Shown piece by piece: positions 33,001 to 42,000 of a stretch of 64,000 bases of DNA. Numbering within the stretch: the first letter of the stretch is position 1; the number at the start of each line of letters is the position of its first letter. The position numbers are program-made. The DNA comes from an uncultured Thermoplasmatales archaeon (lineage in GTDB: Archaea; Thermoplasmatota; E2; DHVEG-1), in NCBI GenBank assembly GCA_964638175.1, contig CAZWZY010000008.1, forward strand, positions 1-64,000, written 5' to 3'.

Positions 33001-36000
33001 AGGCAGTGAAAGGCATATCATTTACCGTAAATAAAGGAGAAATTTTTGGACTCATTGGCCCTAATGGTGCAGGGAAAACAACGGCACTACGTGTAATTTC
33101 TACCCTTCTCCAAATCACTGACGGATCAGTAGAAATTCTCGGGTTTGATGTGAAAAGACAACCAGCAGAGATTCGAAAACTGATCAGTTATCTTCCTGAG
33201 GATGCCGGAGCCTATAAAAATCTCACGGGGCGAGCTTATCTTCGTTTTATTGCCAACTTTTTCCACGACATCCCAACAGATGAGATGGTAGCAAAAGGAA
33301 TAGAGATTGCTGATCTTGGGGATCGAATCGATGATAAGGTTGATACCTATAGTAAAGGAATGAAACGACGTTTGCTTGTTGGCAGAGCATTGATGATTAA
33401 TCCAAGACTTGCTATTCTTGACGAGCCTACCTCCGGTCTTGATGTGATCAACGCCCAAGAGATCAGGAAAATTGTAAAAAGTACGGCGAAAGATGGAACC
33501 GCAGTCCTTCTTTCTTCACACAATATGCTAGAGGTGGAGTACCTCTGTGATCGCATTGCGCTCATTGCCGAGGGGAAAATTGTTGAAGAGGGTAAACCAA
33601 AAGCATTGATGCAAAAATATCATGTCAACAATATTGAAGAAGTCTTTGTGCAGGTGGTAAAATGAGTTCGCTAGGAAATATTATTAAAAAAGAGTTACGG
33701 GAGCTGCTCACCTTATCGGCAATCCTTCCCATCATTCTCCTTGCGATTGTGTTTGGTTCGATTGGGAACTCCATGGAAGGTATCCAAGAAGAATTCACCG
33801 AACCACCGGTTTTAGGTTACATCAACGAGGATGAAGGAAATCTCTCCCATGTTGCAATATCATTTTTAGAAACAAATGCAGAGGTCGTATTTAATTCAAC
33901 AGAGATCACAGATAAACAACAAGGATTGGACTATGTCAAACAAAAAGATGGGGTGGCATTACTGGTTATTTCCCAGAATTTTACCTCAAATATCCTTAAT
34001 GAGACACAGGGAGAGATCCAAATCTATTGGATTATGAAAGGAGCCGGTATTCTAGATTCCATATCTTCTGGAATTGTGGAATCGAATCTGGATCTTATCA
34101 ACAGGGCGATAGCACAGGCGCTTATTGAGGAGAATACTACCGTGAATGCCACGATTGCTCTCTCACCGACATCTCGGATAGATACCACCTATTTCAAGAA
34201 TAGAGTAATTGGGTTATCGCCAGGAACAATTACAGGGATGTTGTCATCTCAATCAACCTTTATCCCTATTATCATTATGATGTTGATTATCTTTGCCGGG
34301 CAGATGATTATTTCATCCATGGCTCTTGAAAAAGAAAATAAGACCTTGGAAACGCTGCTCACTTTACCTGTAAAACGAACCAGTATTGTGACTGGGAAAA
34401 TTGCTGCAAGTGCATTCATCGGTCTGCTTTTTGCTGTTATTTACATGATAGGAATGAGTTATTATTTCCAAGGGTTTCAGTTCACTGAAGGGATTAATCT
34501 TGCCGAGTATGGCCTTGTGTTGACCTCCCAAGATTTTCTGTTAATAGGGATTTCTTTGTTTATCACGCTCATCGCCGCGCTTGCTCTCTGCATGTTACTG
34601 GGAACATTTGCAAAGAATTTCAAAAGTGGTCAAACATTGGTCTTCCCGGTAACGATGCTGGCGATGATTCCTATGTTTATTACCATGTTTATCGATTTTG
34701 ACACCCTTCCGCTTGCCGCAAAAGCACTTGTCTTTGCGATACCGTTTTCTCATCCAATGATGGCGCCACGAGCACTCATATTCAATGATTACTTGTTAGT
34801 ACTCAGTGGCATTGCTTACGTAGCTATCTTTGCAATAGTGACCATAGCTATTGTGGTGTGGATATTCAAAACAGATCGATTGCTTACTGGTAGCACTAAG
34901 AAAAAGCAAACCAAGGGGCTAGGGGCATTGTTTATGAAACGGCGATAGTGTCCTTGTTATATGCTCTATGCTCTTTACAGCAACCCACCTTTTTTGTAGA
35001 TGGTACGCTGTGCTTGTGAAAAGGGTTTAATTTGGTATGTCTTCCCTTGTGTTTTGTCGATAAGCTCTCCAGTGGTGAAATCAACACAGAGTAGATCATG
35101 ATTATTGATGTTCCCAATAAAGCCGGTACCAATGAGAATAGGTAATGCACTATTGATAGCGTTTCGCTCGTAAATAGCACCAAACGATTCTGCGATAATG
35201 GCACTTATGCCAAGTGATTTGAAACAATCTACGGCTTGTTGTCGGGAGCTGCCACAGCCAAAATTTTTTCCGGTGATGATGATATCTCCAGGATGAGCTT
35301 GTTGTGAAAAGTCTTCAAATCCTTTGAGATTGTCAAAGGTATATTGCCCCATTTCTTCCATATCTGTTATTGACAAATATCTATTATGATAAATCATATC
35401 AGTATCGATGTTGTCTTTATCGATAAGCCACGCCCGTCCCTCTACTTGTAACAAGGCATCACGATGTTGACGTGCTGATGGTGTTGGTGTTGTGGAGAGT
35501 AGTGTACTGGGGGGGTTTTTTGAGGTTGCCGGTATCTTATCTTTTGTAGTGATATATCCAGCAACCAGTGATGCTGCGACAGTCTCAGGGGATGCAAGGT
35601 AGATATCTCCCTTTCCTTGTTTGCCCATGTAATTACGATTTCCAGAAGAAACGGCAACTTCTCCTGCACCGGTTTGCCCAATTTGTCCTGCAGCACACCC
35701 TGCGCATCCTGCGGATCCTACCAATGCACCCGCATCTTTGAATATTTGTATCAATCCTTCATCCAAACACTGCTTCCATATTTTATCAGTTGATGGAACG
35801 ATCTTAAGCACTCGCCCTGGTGCAATTTTTGGGCCTCGCAATATCGTAGCAACCGCTCGCATGTCTTCCATCCGACCATTGGTACACGAGCCGATAAAAC
35901 CAGAGTCGACAGGTGTTTCTGCAACGTCGTTGATAGATACAACATCTTCGGGATGGCCGGGTCGAGCGATTAACGGTTGAAGGCCATCGATATCGACCTC

Positions 36001-39000: not shown

Positions 39001-42000
39001 AACCGTCATGCTTCTACACCAATGACTTTCTAATCTCGAAATCAATAAAATCGCAATGATTAACAATTACTGCTTCGGGGCTTCGTTTTAGCTTATCTCC
39101 CTCGTGTGAATGGGCATAAATGATAAACACCACTTCATCAGGAAGACCAAGCTCTCTTGCAAGCAATGAACCTGAAACAGGGTGACGAAATTTTTCACCA
39201 TATGCTCCTTTGACATAGCGGCCATCTTTTTTTACATATTCCAACAGCTTGCCGACATCATGAAGCAAGGCACCAGCAATTAAATAGTCGATATTTAGTG
39301 TTTCTTTCCGCTGGTCAGCAACAGCTTTTGCAAGATGAGTGACTCGTTTGGTATGATCAATCAGCCTGCCCGAATTATCGATAAGTAAGGTAAACGGAGC
39401 ATCTTCAAGTTTGTGCCACTTTCCTCGATCGGCAGCCTCCTTCCAGACTGCTACTACCTTCTCTCTCAATTCAGTCTTTTTTATCCATGCTAGTTCAGAT
39501 GCAAAACAGGTTTCTATGTCTCGTTTTTCCACCATACTCTGCCCCCTAAAATGCGTGTTCTGTAATCAATAGCACTATTATTAACATTCTCATTACAAGT
39601 ATAAAGAAAAAAGAGAGGGAGTATGTTGTTTAGACTTGGGTTGTATGCACCGTTCGTTGCATCAGGCTGTTCAGAATTGTTGAATGCACGCCAACATACC
39701 CACCAACAGGTATCAAGATGGTATGCTTGGTCCAACCACTTTTATCGCCAATAAAATCACGTGATCTAACATTTATCGTGTATTTTCCACTTGTTTGCCA
39801 CACGTGACTAACCATTACTTCTTCTCCAGAGGTATAAGGACCAAACCATCCAGTGTTAGTACCATCATCCCACGAAACATAGTATAGGACATCGTGGTCA
39901 TTCGGATCTGCAGCGCTGATTGTAAATTCTATTTCTCCGAATCCAACCCCCGGGCCGGTAACGGTTGGTAGTGCTGGTGGCAAATTTTCGATAATGGAGA
40001 TGGCAGAAACATCAGACCAATCGCTGGCGGCGCCCCACTGATCTCGTGCTTTCACGCGAACATTATAATCGCCCAACTGTTTCCACTCATGAGAGGCATA
40101 TCCTGTTTCTCCTGATGGATACGGACCGACCCATCCGCTGGTACTACCGTCTCCCCAATCAAAGAGATAGTAGATGGATTCTTCTTCTGGATCGGTTGCA
40201 GTTGCGCTAAAGGTTGCTGATTGATTGATAACCCATTCTGGTGGACCTGTCGGAGCGGTAGGTGTCGAAGGTGCTTCACTAGGATGTGGTGTTTTTAATT
40301 GCTGAGCAGGATCTCCAAAGAGAAGACATCCTTGGATAATAGCCCGCCATGTTCCGTAGGAATAATCCCAATTAATGGTTGGCGCCATCATGTCTTTTGA
40401 CCATGCTTGGCCCTTACCTAATTGCCAGTTTGTAAAGTCTCCAGAATTGTTTGCCATATCAAAGAAGTAATGCCAAAACATTTTTTGTTGAAAAGCGCTG
40501 CTTGAATTTGTGCAATACAGATTTCCCCATCCATAACAGGTATTGTAGACGCAAGCAAAGGCAAGTTCAGTGTCTGAATGGAAGAGCATAGAATGGAGAA
40601 CGCCGTCTGGAGATGCGTCCATGTCCCCGCAGTGGCAGCCATAATCATGAATGAAAAATGGTTTTGTATTGGTATATTGACTTTCCCATGAACCCATTCC
40701 CACATCAAGAGACATTCCTGAATTCGCGTGGGCAATACCAGAGATCAAGGTCACTTGATCGTTGTTAATATCATTTCTCAGTCCAGCAATAGCTGCGGAT
40801 TCGCTTCCTCCTTGCCAACCAGGGTTTGGCGGCTCGGCAGTCCATTTGACAGAAAGATCAAAGGAATTTTGGGCATTATTAAGATTCCAAGTTTCGAAAC
40901 CAAATTGGAATCCTACCCATGAGGGAAATGGGCCATCATAGTGTGGATAGGGGCCAAGCCAATCATCAGTTCCTTTAATTGCGCTATAATCGATGAAATC
41001 ATCACCCTGACATTGCCACGTAGTATCTCCTCCATAAAACGCTGCATTATCTAGATAATCTTCCTCTACGGAATCGGCGTAGTAGAAGCTCTTGGTCATC
41101 CAATTTGATACATCTTGCTTACCATCGCAGGTCAATCGACCAATGAAAAGTTCTGAATACAAATCAAAACCAGCATCTCCCTCTTCTCCCCAATAATAAT
41201 CACCATCTTCGTTGAATGTGTTATCAAGATTACTCCAGTAGAGATCTGAGTCGATATTGCCTTCATAATTGGTTTTCATATGACGAGCGGGAATCCATTC
41301 ATCGTCACCGCCGATAAGAACATATGAAGTTCCCCAATCCTGGTAGGCATCCTTACAGAATTCTCTGATATGGGCTTGTTGGTCGTTGAAAAGCGGATCT
41401 GAAGAGTGGTAGTCTGTACAGGCATCGATATCCTGAATGGCCACCAGAGTGCAACTGAGTCCGTCATCATTGGTGTGTTTGTCCATCAAACTATCCCAAT
41501 TATAGGGAGTTTGTGTGGTGGTATCCCAATAATCTAAGTCGTTGTGGGTTGTAGTGATAATGACATAATCATAATGATCTTCAGGATCGCACAGACCGCC
41601 AGGATAATCAAACGTAGGAACACCTGCATCATAGGTATCGATAACGTTTGGATTCATNNNNNNNNNNAATATCAACGGTCATTTCTGGATAGTAAAATAA
41701 TTTTCCTTGACCAGGGATATATGCCGTTGGATTGAGTGTGACATCTAAAATGGTGTATCCATGACTATAAGAAATCGTTTGTTCTTGGATAATCGCTGAC
41801 GGGAAGGGATCATCAGAGGAATATATCTGTTGGTTCATCACAAAAGACTGTGAACTCTTTTGACCAAAAGGTACTGATTGTTGATGCGGCAGTATCGGAT
41901 CTTCAAGTAAATCTACGCCATGATCAACAAGGTCTACTTCTTCAAGATTCCCTGAGATAGAGATGTCTGCGACCGTTTTCATCGGTGGCAATAACAATTT

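What a model noticed while it worked through the whole genome (the two positions that open the first line are those of the whole stretch)
34975..39535. ACP-free CitF + citryl-CoA lyase operon
A conserved operon joins an HD protein, a CitF-type citrate CoA-transferase, a stand-alone citryl-CoA lyase and often a fused LeuCD-type aconitase, while CitD, CitE, CitC, CitG and CitX are absent. It suggests a carrier-free, ATP-independent route between a tricarboxylate and acetyl-CoA plus oxo-acid, separate from the genome's ATP citrate lyase.
Evidence so far: citF 494 bits (cut 501), citryl-CoA lyase 300 bits (cut 212); no other Cit rows in pfam.tsv. citF-ccl adjacent in 6 of 9 fetched relatives, HD upstream in 6; pair near in 61 of 117 order genomes but only 130 GTDB genomes. 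Search 162 found no description.
(Added by a program. Inside this text positions count along the whole contig: contig position 1 is position 1 of the stretch shown here. "Call 12" and the like, gene names such as g00115 and contig names such as C1 are that model's own, and its searches are not shown. The text may have been shortened before it was handed on; [...] marks where a part breaks off. The agent that wrote the report below was given it as the finding of a first reader that could run no searches.)

Follow-up and report, generated by a model that had tools for sequence, protein, structure and literature searches.

The report
Carrier-free homocitrate-splitting operon in archaea
A sediment archaeon pairs the CoA-transferase of bacterial citrate lyase with a citrate-synthase-like lyase and lacks the usual carrier protein; the partner genes suggest that the pair likely splits homocitrate rather than citrate, as the last step of a predicted, untested route that would break down lysine while taking up CO2.

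Summary
Four tightly packed genes (HD, CitF, citryl-CoA-lyase-like Ccl, fused LeuCD) lie on the minus strand, and CitD/E/C/G/X are absent from a 95%-complete Thermoplasmatota genome. CitF-Ccl are adjacent in 60 of 93 order genomes. The same slot holds two substitutes: an ATP-dependent ligase fused to Ccl (13 genomes, none with CitF) or CitD-CitE whose carrier serine is lost. Free-CoA activation plus C-C cleavage is therefore likely (~0.9). The substrate is probably not plain citrate. The genes travel with a second LeuCD and a dehydrogenase bearing the homoisocitrate-dehydrogenase motif YSSPIV; the genome has a separate ATP-citrate lyase, encodes lysine-degrading entry enzymes and lacks known lysine biosynthesis; metagenome operons place the same set behind lysine-catabolic genes. 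Best reading (0.5): lysine-derived 2-oxoadipate is carboxylated to homocitrate and split to acetate plus 2-oxoglutarate. Rivals: citrate (0.25), biosynthetic direction (0.12), other substrate (0.1). No enzyme is tested and HD's role is unknown. Ten literature searches found no description. This scan noted the archaeal pair before (read as citrate lyase) and, separately, bacterial homocitrate-type operons; the link between them is made here.

The parts
39014..39535 (-). HD-domain metal-binding protein, 173 aa, function unknown; invariant H61, D93, K96, E99, Y100, R117, H118, H142, E145, R151, D162; H92 of the 'HD' motif varies
   Evidence: PF01966 50.7 bits; alignment of 48; model pLDDT 97; nearest solved fold YhaM HD domain, TM 0.70, 21% identity
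37519..39009 (-). CitF-type CoA-transferase, 496 aa from ATG 39009; predicted to load CoA onto the tricarboxylate from free acyl-CoA
   Evidence: TIGR01584 493.9 of 501.45; PF04223 445.5; 1xr4 E 1.7e-111; 37% identical to E. coli CitF
36745..37515 (-). Citrate-synthase-fold acyl-CoA C-C lyase (Ccl type), 256 aa; H62, H97, H145, R153, D194, R219 kept
   Evidence: NF004869 300.2 of 212; best solved relative 6hxp 'Citryl-CoA lyase' E 1.8e-72; residue conservation in 55 relatives
34975..36726 (-). Fused LeuC-LeuD aconitase-family dehydratase ('LeuCD1'), 583 aa; three Fe-S cysteine motifs, DSH and GSSR kept, but RDFGG (34), DCN (63-65) and NRNxxGK (363-369) replace the usual HD, DH and NRNxxGR
   Evidence: NF001614 358.8 of 385, TIGR02087 137.8 of 108.95; alignments to 4nqy/4kp2/3vba; motif survey

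Best explanation
The four genes form an operon that lacks any carrier-protein gene and likely encodes the last steps of a predicted lysine-breakdown route, in which CitF would put CoA on homocitrate and the Ccl-type lyase would split homocitryl-CoA into acetyl-CoA and 2-oxoglutarate. Shown: gene order, family identities, absence of CitD/E/C/G/X, the swap of modules at this slot, co-occurrence with the partner genes. Inferred steps: (1) lysine goes to 2-oxoadipate by the genome's lysine 6-transaminase or LKR/saccharopine dehydrogenase, an aldehyde dehydrogenase and an aminotransferase; (2) the YSSPIV dehydrogenase (C33 end/C39 start) runs backwards, 2-oxoadipate + CO2 + NAD(P)H to homoisocitrate; (3) LeuC2/D2 (C12) gives homoaconitate; (4) the remodelled LeuCD1 gives the homocitrate isomer that a citrate-synthase-type (Si-face) lyase can cleave, (S) rather than the (R) form of biosynthesis; (5) CitF transfers CoA from acetyl-CoA, Ccl regenerates it, so the net products are acetate and 2-oxoglutarate with no ATP used. 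HD is a fixed part of the set; my guess is a hydrolase or isomerase on an intermediate, such as homocitrate lactone (probability about 0.2). The free-CoA activation plus cleavage core is about 0.9 likely whatever the substrate.
For: Core: 13 family genomes that lack CitF have, between the same HD and the same flanks, a SucC-like subunit and a SucD-Ccl fusion (one fusion is frameshifted); none of the 72 CitF genomes shows that fusion among the listed rows. The sister family has HD-CitD/CitE-CitF, and all 9 clade CitD domains inspected lack an alignable Ser14 (two fused ones are ambiguous because of an insertion). ACP family: 0 of 86 other genomes of the own family. Substrate: the dehydrogenase motif YSSPIVGLRQ matches the S. 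pombe homoisocitrate dehydrogenase YSSPIVALRK and lacks the S-x-N of isocitrate dehydrogenases (SPIV in 28 of 28 copies the pattern caught). The ATP-dependent substitute lacks the IANFT/RRGGP loop of ATP-citrate lyases, has RFGGISSC in 13 of 13 and hits only succinyl-CoA synthetases in the PDB. Three metagenome loci hold CitDE-CitF-dehydrogenase-HD-LeuCD1 (two also LeuCD2); one starts with P6C dehydrogenase (803.6 of 730) and a class III aminotransferase, another has a saccharopine-dehydrogenase domain upstream. The dehydrogenase directly precedes HD in 23 of 54 metagenome loci; archaeal L061 has all six functions in one run. Direction: own genome has L-lysine 6-transaminase (640.5 of 520.8), LKR-like and saccharopine dehydrogenase genes clustered on C3; LKR-like in 38 of 45 order genomes; LysX in 0 of 45; no hit for LysA, DapA, DapB, ArgB, ArgC or ilv/thr/his queries, nor for 3 of 5 trp queries; none of 3 acyl-CoA dehydrogenases reaches the glutaryl-CoA dehydrogenase cut-off. 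Six genomes without either module also lack LeuCD1.
Against: No enzyme is assayed. Ccl keeps all residues of the true citryl-CoA lyase and nothing in its sequence marks homocitrate. About 25 of 45 genomes have the YSSPIV enzyme as their only IDH-family hit, so it may also serve as isocitrate dehydrogenase. The dehydrogenase and LeuC2/D2 persist in genomes that lost the module (broken only in G014; the LeuC in G046 and G048 is a more distant type), so they do not depend on it. A homocitrate synthase over the cut-off is present in this genome and in G047 sits in one run with LKR, saccharopine dehydrogenase and lysine transaminase, which fits homocitrate chemistry but also fits biosynthesis. The genome's closest aldehyde dehydrogenase is below the P6C-dehydrogenase cut-off (416.5 of 730). 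G011, G012, G002 and G003 hold a module but no LKR hit. Neither small subunit shows the arginine loop that I recall for methanogen homoaconitase. The (S)-homocitrate step is argued from stereochemistry and has no characterised precedent that I could read.
Confidence: 0.5

Rival explanations
1. Carrier-free citrate lyase: CitF + Ccl split citrate to acetate and oxaloacetate, with LeuCD1 as an aconitase, for fermenting glutamate or citrate, or as an ATP-saving bypass of the ATP-citrate lyase.
For: Both enzymes are closest to citrate enzymes; citrate is prochiral and needs no stereo-inversion (established); the dehydrogenase may be bifunctional; a comparable CoA-transferase + Ccl pair lies beside tricarboxylate transporters on a plasmid; PMC3362086 reads CitF + CitDE of Ignavibacterium as citrate lyase.
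Against: The genome already has aconitase, AclAB with the canonical citrate loop and IDH in one cluster; citrate needs one dehydratase, yet two travel with the module and LeuCD1 has a remodelled site; the ATP-dependent substitute lacks the citrate loop; lysine-catabolic neighbours in metagenome operons.
Confidence: 0.25
2. Same chemistry run forwards: Ccl + CitF replace homocitrate synthase and feed a fungal-type aminoadipate-saccharopine route that makes lysine.
For: A homocitrate synthase lies in one run with LKR, saccharopine dehydrogenase and lysine transaminase in G047; 34 of 45 genomes have no synthase of that family while keeping the dehydratases and dehydrogenase; no other lysine synthesis was found.
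Against: All three interchangeable modules resemble cleaving enzymes; with an assumed standard free energy near zero (recalled, not measured) synthesis would stall at micromolar product; 4 of the 5 genomes with this synthase type also hold the module (CitF interrupted in one), which would be redundant; I identified no aminoadipate-reducing enzyme (not searched exhaustively); the genome lacks most amino-acid synthesis tested; P6C dehydrogenase heads one operon.
Confidence: 0.12
3. Another asymmetric substrate, such as 2-methylcitrate (propionyl-CoA metabolism) or a dicarboxylate like citramalate.
For: The 2-methylcitrate cycle also needs two dehydratase steps behind a citrate-synthase-fold enzyme (PMC5690661); one locus has a PrpB-like gene after Ccl (L043).
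Against: No PrpB-like gene in the own genome; 2-methylisocitrate is a tertiary alcohol that the linked dehydrogenase could not oxidise (established chemistry); the PrpB-like neighbour is 1 of 79 loci.
Confidence: 0.1

Closest known systems
Bacterial citrate (pro-3S)-lyase CitDEF with CitC/CitG/CitX (EC 4.1.3.6; E. coli citCDEFXG)
   Same: CitF-type transferase; predicted acyl exchange followed by retro-Claisen cleavage, net acetate + oxo-acid, no ATP per turnover
   Different: No CitD, CitE, CitC, CitG, CitX; the lyase has the citrate-synthase fold; carrier would be free CoA; substrate probably differs. That isolated CitF accepts acetyl-CoA (EC 2.8.3.10) is recalled, not read here.
Citryl-CoA synthetase + citryl-CoA lyase (CCS/CCL, Hydrogenobacter; PDB 6hxp, 6hxq) and type II ATP-citrate lyase
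   Same: The lyase is a close relative of 6hxp; the substitute module in 13 relatives has the ligase-lyase fusion layout described for type II ACL (PMC5459899)
   Different: In the window a CoA-transferase replaces the ATP-dependent synthetase; the substitute's beta subunit resembles succinyl-CoA synthetase, not CCS or ACL, and lacks their citrate loop
Upper alpha-aminoadipate pathway (homocitrate synthase, aconitase/homoaconitase, homoisocitrate dehydrogenase)
   Same: Two dehydratases and a dehydrogenase with the fungal HICDH motif
   Different: A cleaving module stands where the Re-face synthase would; no LysX; predicted to run backwards
2-methylcitrate cycle with PrpD or AcnD + PrpF (PMC5690661)
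   Same: A citrate-synthase-fold enzyme whose product does not fit an ordinary aconitase needs an extra dehydratase or isomerase; this is the model for LeuCD1 and perhaps HD
   Different: No PrpB, PrpC, PrpF in this set; a decarboxylating dehydrogenase is linked instead
Ignavibacterium album CitF + fused CitD-CitE (IALB_1146/1147; PMC3362086)
   Same: CitF with a fused CitD-CitE as in the sister family and the metagenome operons
   Different: Read there as a citrate lyase, without assay; the passages seen do not mention HD, LeuCD or dehydrogenase partners, nor a Ccl replacement

Membership tests
Citrate lyase CitDEF (EC 4.1.3.6) | CitF alpha subunit | tested here: met
   PF04223 445.5 bits; TIGR01584 493.9, just under the 501.45 cut-off
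Citrate lyase CitDEF (EC 4.1.3.6) | CitE beta subunit | tested here: not met
   No PF03328 match, no tblastn hit in own genome
Citrate lyase CitDEF (EC 4.1.3.6) | CitD carrier with Ser14 prosthetic group; CitC, CitG, CitX | tested here: not met
   ACP in 0 of 86 other family genomes
Citrate lyase CitDEF (EC 4.1.3.6) | Cleaves citrate | not testable with these tools
   Needs an assay
Citryl-CoA lyase (PRK06224 family) | Short citrate-synthase-fold protein over the family cut-off with catalytic His/Asp/Arg | tested here: met
   NF004869 300.2 of 212; 6hxp E 1.8e-72; residues kept
CCS/CCL system | ATP-dependent citryl-CoA synthetase partner | tested here: not met
   CitF is the neighbour; SucC/SucD-type queries find only the SCS and AclA genes on C2
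Type II ATP-citrate lyase (for the substitute module in relatives) | Ligase alpha subunit fused to Ccl | tested here: met
   715-aa SucD-Ccl fusion
Type II ATP-citrate lyase (for the substitute module in relatives) | Citrate-binding loop as in ACL/CCS beta subunits | tested here: not met
   RFGGISSC in 13 of 13; no ACL or CCS chain among 12 PDB hits at E<=10; no type II ACL sequence itself was compared
Upper alpha-aminoadipate pathway | Homoisocitrate dehydrogenase | tested here: inconclusive
   Motif matches 3ty3; best NCBIfam model AksF2 but below cut-off
Upper alpha-aminoadipate pathway | Homoaconitase | tested here: inconclusive
   LeuC2 passes hacA_fam (532.1 of 385.7); LeuCD1 does not (334.1) and has altered motifs
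LysW-dependent lysine biosynthesis | LysX | tested here: not met
   0 of 45 genomes
2-methylcitrate cycle | PrpB methylisocitrate lyase | tested here: not met
   No hit in own genome with the L043 PrpB-like query
YhaM exoribonuclease | Full-length OB + HD protein (recalled layout) | tested here: not met
   173 aa matching only residues 161-271 of the 321-aa chain, E 0.0024

The most novel reading that the evidence does not exclude
Thermoprofundales-type archaea and several anaerobic bacteria degrade lysine by a CO2-fixing, redox-balanced reverse homocitrate pathway that passes through (S)-homocitrate, made by a new aconitase subfamily (RDFGG/DCN), and ends in any of three interchangeable, carrier-free lyase modules, including an ATP-homocitrate lyase; genes now counted as citrate-cleavage or rTCA markers in these genomes would be misread.
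Probability: 0.4. Interest if true: 0.85.

Novelty: new variant of a known kind. Interest (0 to 1): 0.72.

Why it matters
It would add an anaerobic, carboxylating exit for 2-oxoadipate that bypasses glutaryl-CoA, in one of the most widespread sediment archaeal orders (HD marker in 39 of 40 well-assembled family genomes). It would show that CitF enzymes work with free CoA in nature and that 'citryl-CoA lyase', 'citrate lyase' and SCS-Ccl fusions are unsafe markers for reverse TCA autotrophy, which has been proposed for Thermoplasmatota from gene lists (PMC9802188, PMC11287216). Even the plain citrate reading gives a two-protein, ATP-free lyase that is easy to express and assay.

Tried and rejected
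Expression: no RNA holder was listed, so no reads were laid. The sigma-70 promoter/terminator scan is not suited to archaea and was not used. HD function: sequence search of the PDB, Foldseek and the ESM Atlas gave only generic HD relatives; the wider structural search could not be run, so a distant fold match stays open. The S. meliloti plasmid region with a weak HD hit (32%) showed none of the partner genes. A link to the nearby mevalonate genes (kinase, UbiD, AcnX at window 48355-52481) was considered and set aside as synteny: other genes lie between them here and HD sits in other settings in other families. The CitF tree (48 rows chosen by context, quick search only) places CitD/CitE-linked copies outside the Ccl-linked group, consistent with Ccl replacing CitDE, but the root is midpoint only and no clade test was run. 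No complex prediction was sent, as I make no binding claim. The energy figures use an assumed value and are illustrative. The Drevland 2008 homoaconitase paper was not available, so homocitrate stereochemistry rests on recall. Literature searches with no description of this module or route. Supplements were not read and subscription papers are not covered; either could mention it.
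Full report
Observation. The window holds four same-strand genes with gaps of 4, 3 and 18 nt: HD (39535-39014), CitF (ATG 39009-37519), Ccl (37515-36745) and a fused LeuC-LeuD (36726-34975). 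The closest solved relatives are CitF chains 1xr4/2hj0 and the citryl-CoA lyase 6hxp. The genome (G000, 95.18% complete) has no CitD, CitE, CitG, CitC or CitX by profile or by tblastn with the E. coli proteins. It has a separate aconitase-AclB-AclA-IDH cluster on C2 whose AclB carries the IANFT/RRGGP loop of ATP-citrate lyases. The nearest named relatives are Thermoplasmatota MAGs such as SG8-52-3 and M9B1D, which the papers seen place in Thermoprofundales/DHVEG-1.

Conservation. Of 468 confirmed GTDB stretches the best 79 loci were read: Ccl follows CitF in 61 of 73, HD precedes it in 56 of 71, LeuCD1 follows Ccl in 29 of 56, counting only loci with enough flank; CitC/G/X are in none of the 79. 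In 93 order genomes at >=80% completeness CitF is in 72. In the own family it is adjacent to Ccl in 59 of 66; the other 7 have CitF at a contig end (hand tally). The ACP family is in 0 of 86 other family genomes and 4 of 6 of the sister family.

Three modules at one slot. Of 21 family genomes without CitF, 13 carry at the same place HD, a 427-aa SucC-like gene and a 715-aa SucD-Ccl fusion (one frameshifted), in two cases followed by LeuCD1. Both types occur within the same genera (g20, g34, g36). The sister family has HD, a CitD-CitE fusion and CitF. The nine clade CitD domains inspected have Glu, Lys or Arg where E. coli CitD has Ser14, two fused ones being ambiguous (the role of Ser14 is recalled). 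An ATP-dependent ligase standing in for CitF shows what CitF must do here: make the CoA ester for the lyase. This is inference from gene replacement, but strong. With acetyl-CoA as donor the net products are acetate and oxo-acid.

The larger set. LeuCD1 is a distinct subfamily: RDFGG, DCN (DLH in split forms) and NRNxxGK replace HD, DH and NRNxxGR in archaeal and metagenome copies, while the Fe-S cysteines are kept. A second, conventional LeuC2/D2 lies on C12 and a dehydrogenase is split over the ends of C33 and C39. These genes recombine with each other: LeuCD1-LeuC2-LeuD2, HD-LeuCD1-LeuC2-LeuD2 and dehydrogenase-HD, all six functions in L061. In 54 metagenome loci found with a distant HD, the dehydrogenase directly precedes HD in 23, and three hold CitDE-CitF-dehydrogenase-HD-LeuCD1 (bacterial origin inferred from flanking genes). 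The dehydrogenase type is in 43 of 45 well-assembled order genomes (3 as contig-end fragments; sorted by frame length and score, six checked by BLAST), broken in one, not found in one. Six genomes with neither module also lack LeuCD1; of the other two, G054 has it and G068 is fragmentary. G014 lacks HD too and its dehydrogenase has stops.

Substrate. The dehydrogenase reads YSSPIVGLRQ, against YSSPIVALRK in the homoisocitrate dehydrogenase 3ty3 and YRSLNV/YRSVNV in isocitrate dehydrogenases. The ATP-dependent substitute lacks the citrate loop and hits only succinyl-CoA synthetases (and one unrelated chain) in the PDB, whereas the genome's AclB hits ACL and CCS. One metagenome operon begins with P6C dehydrogenase (over cut-off) and a class III aminotransferase; another has a saccharopine-dehydrogenase domain upstream. 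G000 has lysine 6-transaminase over cut-off beside LKR-like and saccharopine-dehydrogenase genes, and the LKR-like gene is in 38 of 45 genomes. Two dehydratases make sense for an asymmetric substrate: citrate-synthase-fold and CitE lyases act on the Si side, homocitrate synthase on the Re side (recalled), so an extra step is needed, as in the methylcitrate cycle, where aconitases act on the oxaloacetate-derived arm and PrpD or AcnD+PrpF fill the gap (PMC5690661, abstract and passages).

Direction. LysX is in 0 of 45 genomes; G000 gives no hit for LysA, DapA, DapB, ArgB, ArgC, ilv, thr or his queries, nor for trpA, trpC, trpE, while controls hit. None of three acyl-CoA dehydrogenases reaches the glutaryl-CoA dehydrogenase cut-off (best 371.7 of 470). 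All three modules resemble cleaving enzymes. This favours breakdown.

Against. Nothing is assayed. Ccl shows no sequence mark for homocitrate. About 25 of 45 genomes have the YSSPIV enzyme as their only IDH-family hit, and it and LeuC2/D2 stay when the module is lost. A homocitrate-synthase type is in 5 of 45 genomes (three checked over cut-off, two by 65-67% identity), and in G047 it heads the LKR-SDH-transaminase run, which allows a biosynthetic reading. The aldehyde dehydrogenase step in G000 is not assigned. Four module-bearing genomes lack an LKR hit. HD remains unexplained: a confident model resembles only the YhaM HD domain.

Literature. Passages seen: PMC3362086 (CitF + CitDE fusion read as citrate lyase), PMC9802188 and PMC11287216 (rTCA proposed for Thermoplasmatota from gene lists), PMC6461988 and PMC9585477 (no 'citrate' or 'lysine' in the main text), PMC5459899 (type II ACL fusion), PMC11237513 (nothing on this module in the passages). 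'Homocitryl-CoA' occurs in no held paper; the other nine searches listed no description. Supplements and subscription papers were not seen.

Earlier notes of this scan. Several read the archaeal CitF + Ccl pair as a carrier-free citrate lyase; others read bacterial six-gene operons as a reverse homocitrate route, some with PrpD where LeuCD1 stands here (not checked by me). I reached the homocitrate reading before these look-ups (notes); they are not independent support. A search joining both ideas returned nothing.

Verdict. A real, conserved operon; not a member of CitDEF or CCS/CCL, though it works like them. Carrier-free CoA activation plus cleavage about 0.9; homocitrate cleavage in lysine breakdown 0.5; interest 0.72.

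Noticed in passing
G000:C3:19925-26288 (L191): Cluster of LKR-like, saccharopine dehydrogenase and L-lysine 6-transaminase genes in an archaeon; LKR-like in 38 of 45 order genomes. Two parallel entries to the same aldehyde could also act as a transhydrogenation loop.
   Followed up: partly
L105:4887-8305 and 12 other loci (L106-L116, L123): SucC-like + SucD-Ccl fusion without the ACL citrate loop: a candidate separately evolved ATP-(homo)citrate lyase that annotation would call type II ACL.
   Followed up: partly
L079:313-555, L082:6898-7146, L070, L071, L117, L118, L171: CitD homologues without the prosthetic-group serine next to CitE and CitF; carrier-free 'citrate lyases' may be common.
   Followed up: partly
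L066/L068, L069/L080, L076/L077: Three Thermoplasmata genomes have two CitF paralogues, one beside Ccl and one beside HD/LeuCD/dehydrogenase, with a single Ccl found per genome.
   Followed up: partly
window 48355-52481: Mevalonate kinase, UbiD-family decarboxylase and two-subunit AcnX genes (archaeal modified mevalonate pathway by my recall), syntenic with the operon in many relatives.
   Followed up: partly
G000:C2:35948-37204 (L083:13949-15205): LarA-family nickel-dependent 2-hydroxyacid racemase near the ACL cluster; substrate not assigned.
   Followed up: no
G000:C12:34610-35116: A gene that looks like a gamma-class carbonic anhydrase (by recall of the sequence type, not scanned) lies convergent to LeuC2/D2 here and in G014, G022, G023.
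   Followed up: no
L180:7769-10694: Agrobacterium plasmid operon: CoA transferase + citryl-CoA lyase + ICL/PEP-mutase-family gene beside tripartite tricarboxylate transporters, a parallel carrier-free design.
   Followed up: no
window 39630-42321: Two overlapping ORFs around a 10-N gap at 41658-41667 that look like one secreted peptidase with PKD-like repeats (by eye).
   Followed up: no
L022, L056, L061, L078, L081: A longer, about 350-aa Ccl form pairs with CitF and resembles the lyase domain of the SucD fusion.
   Followed up: partly
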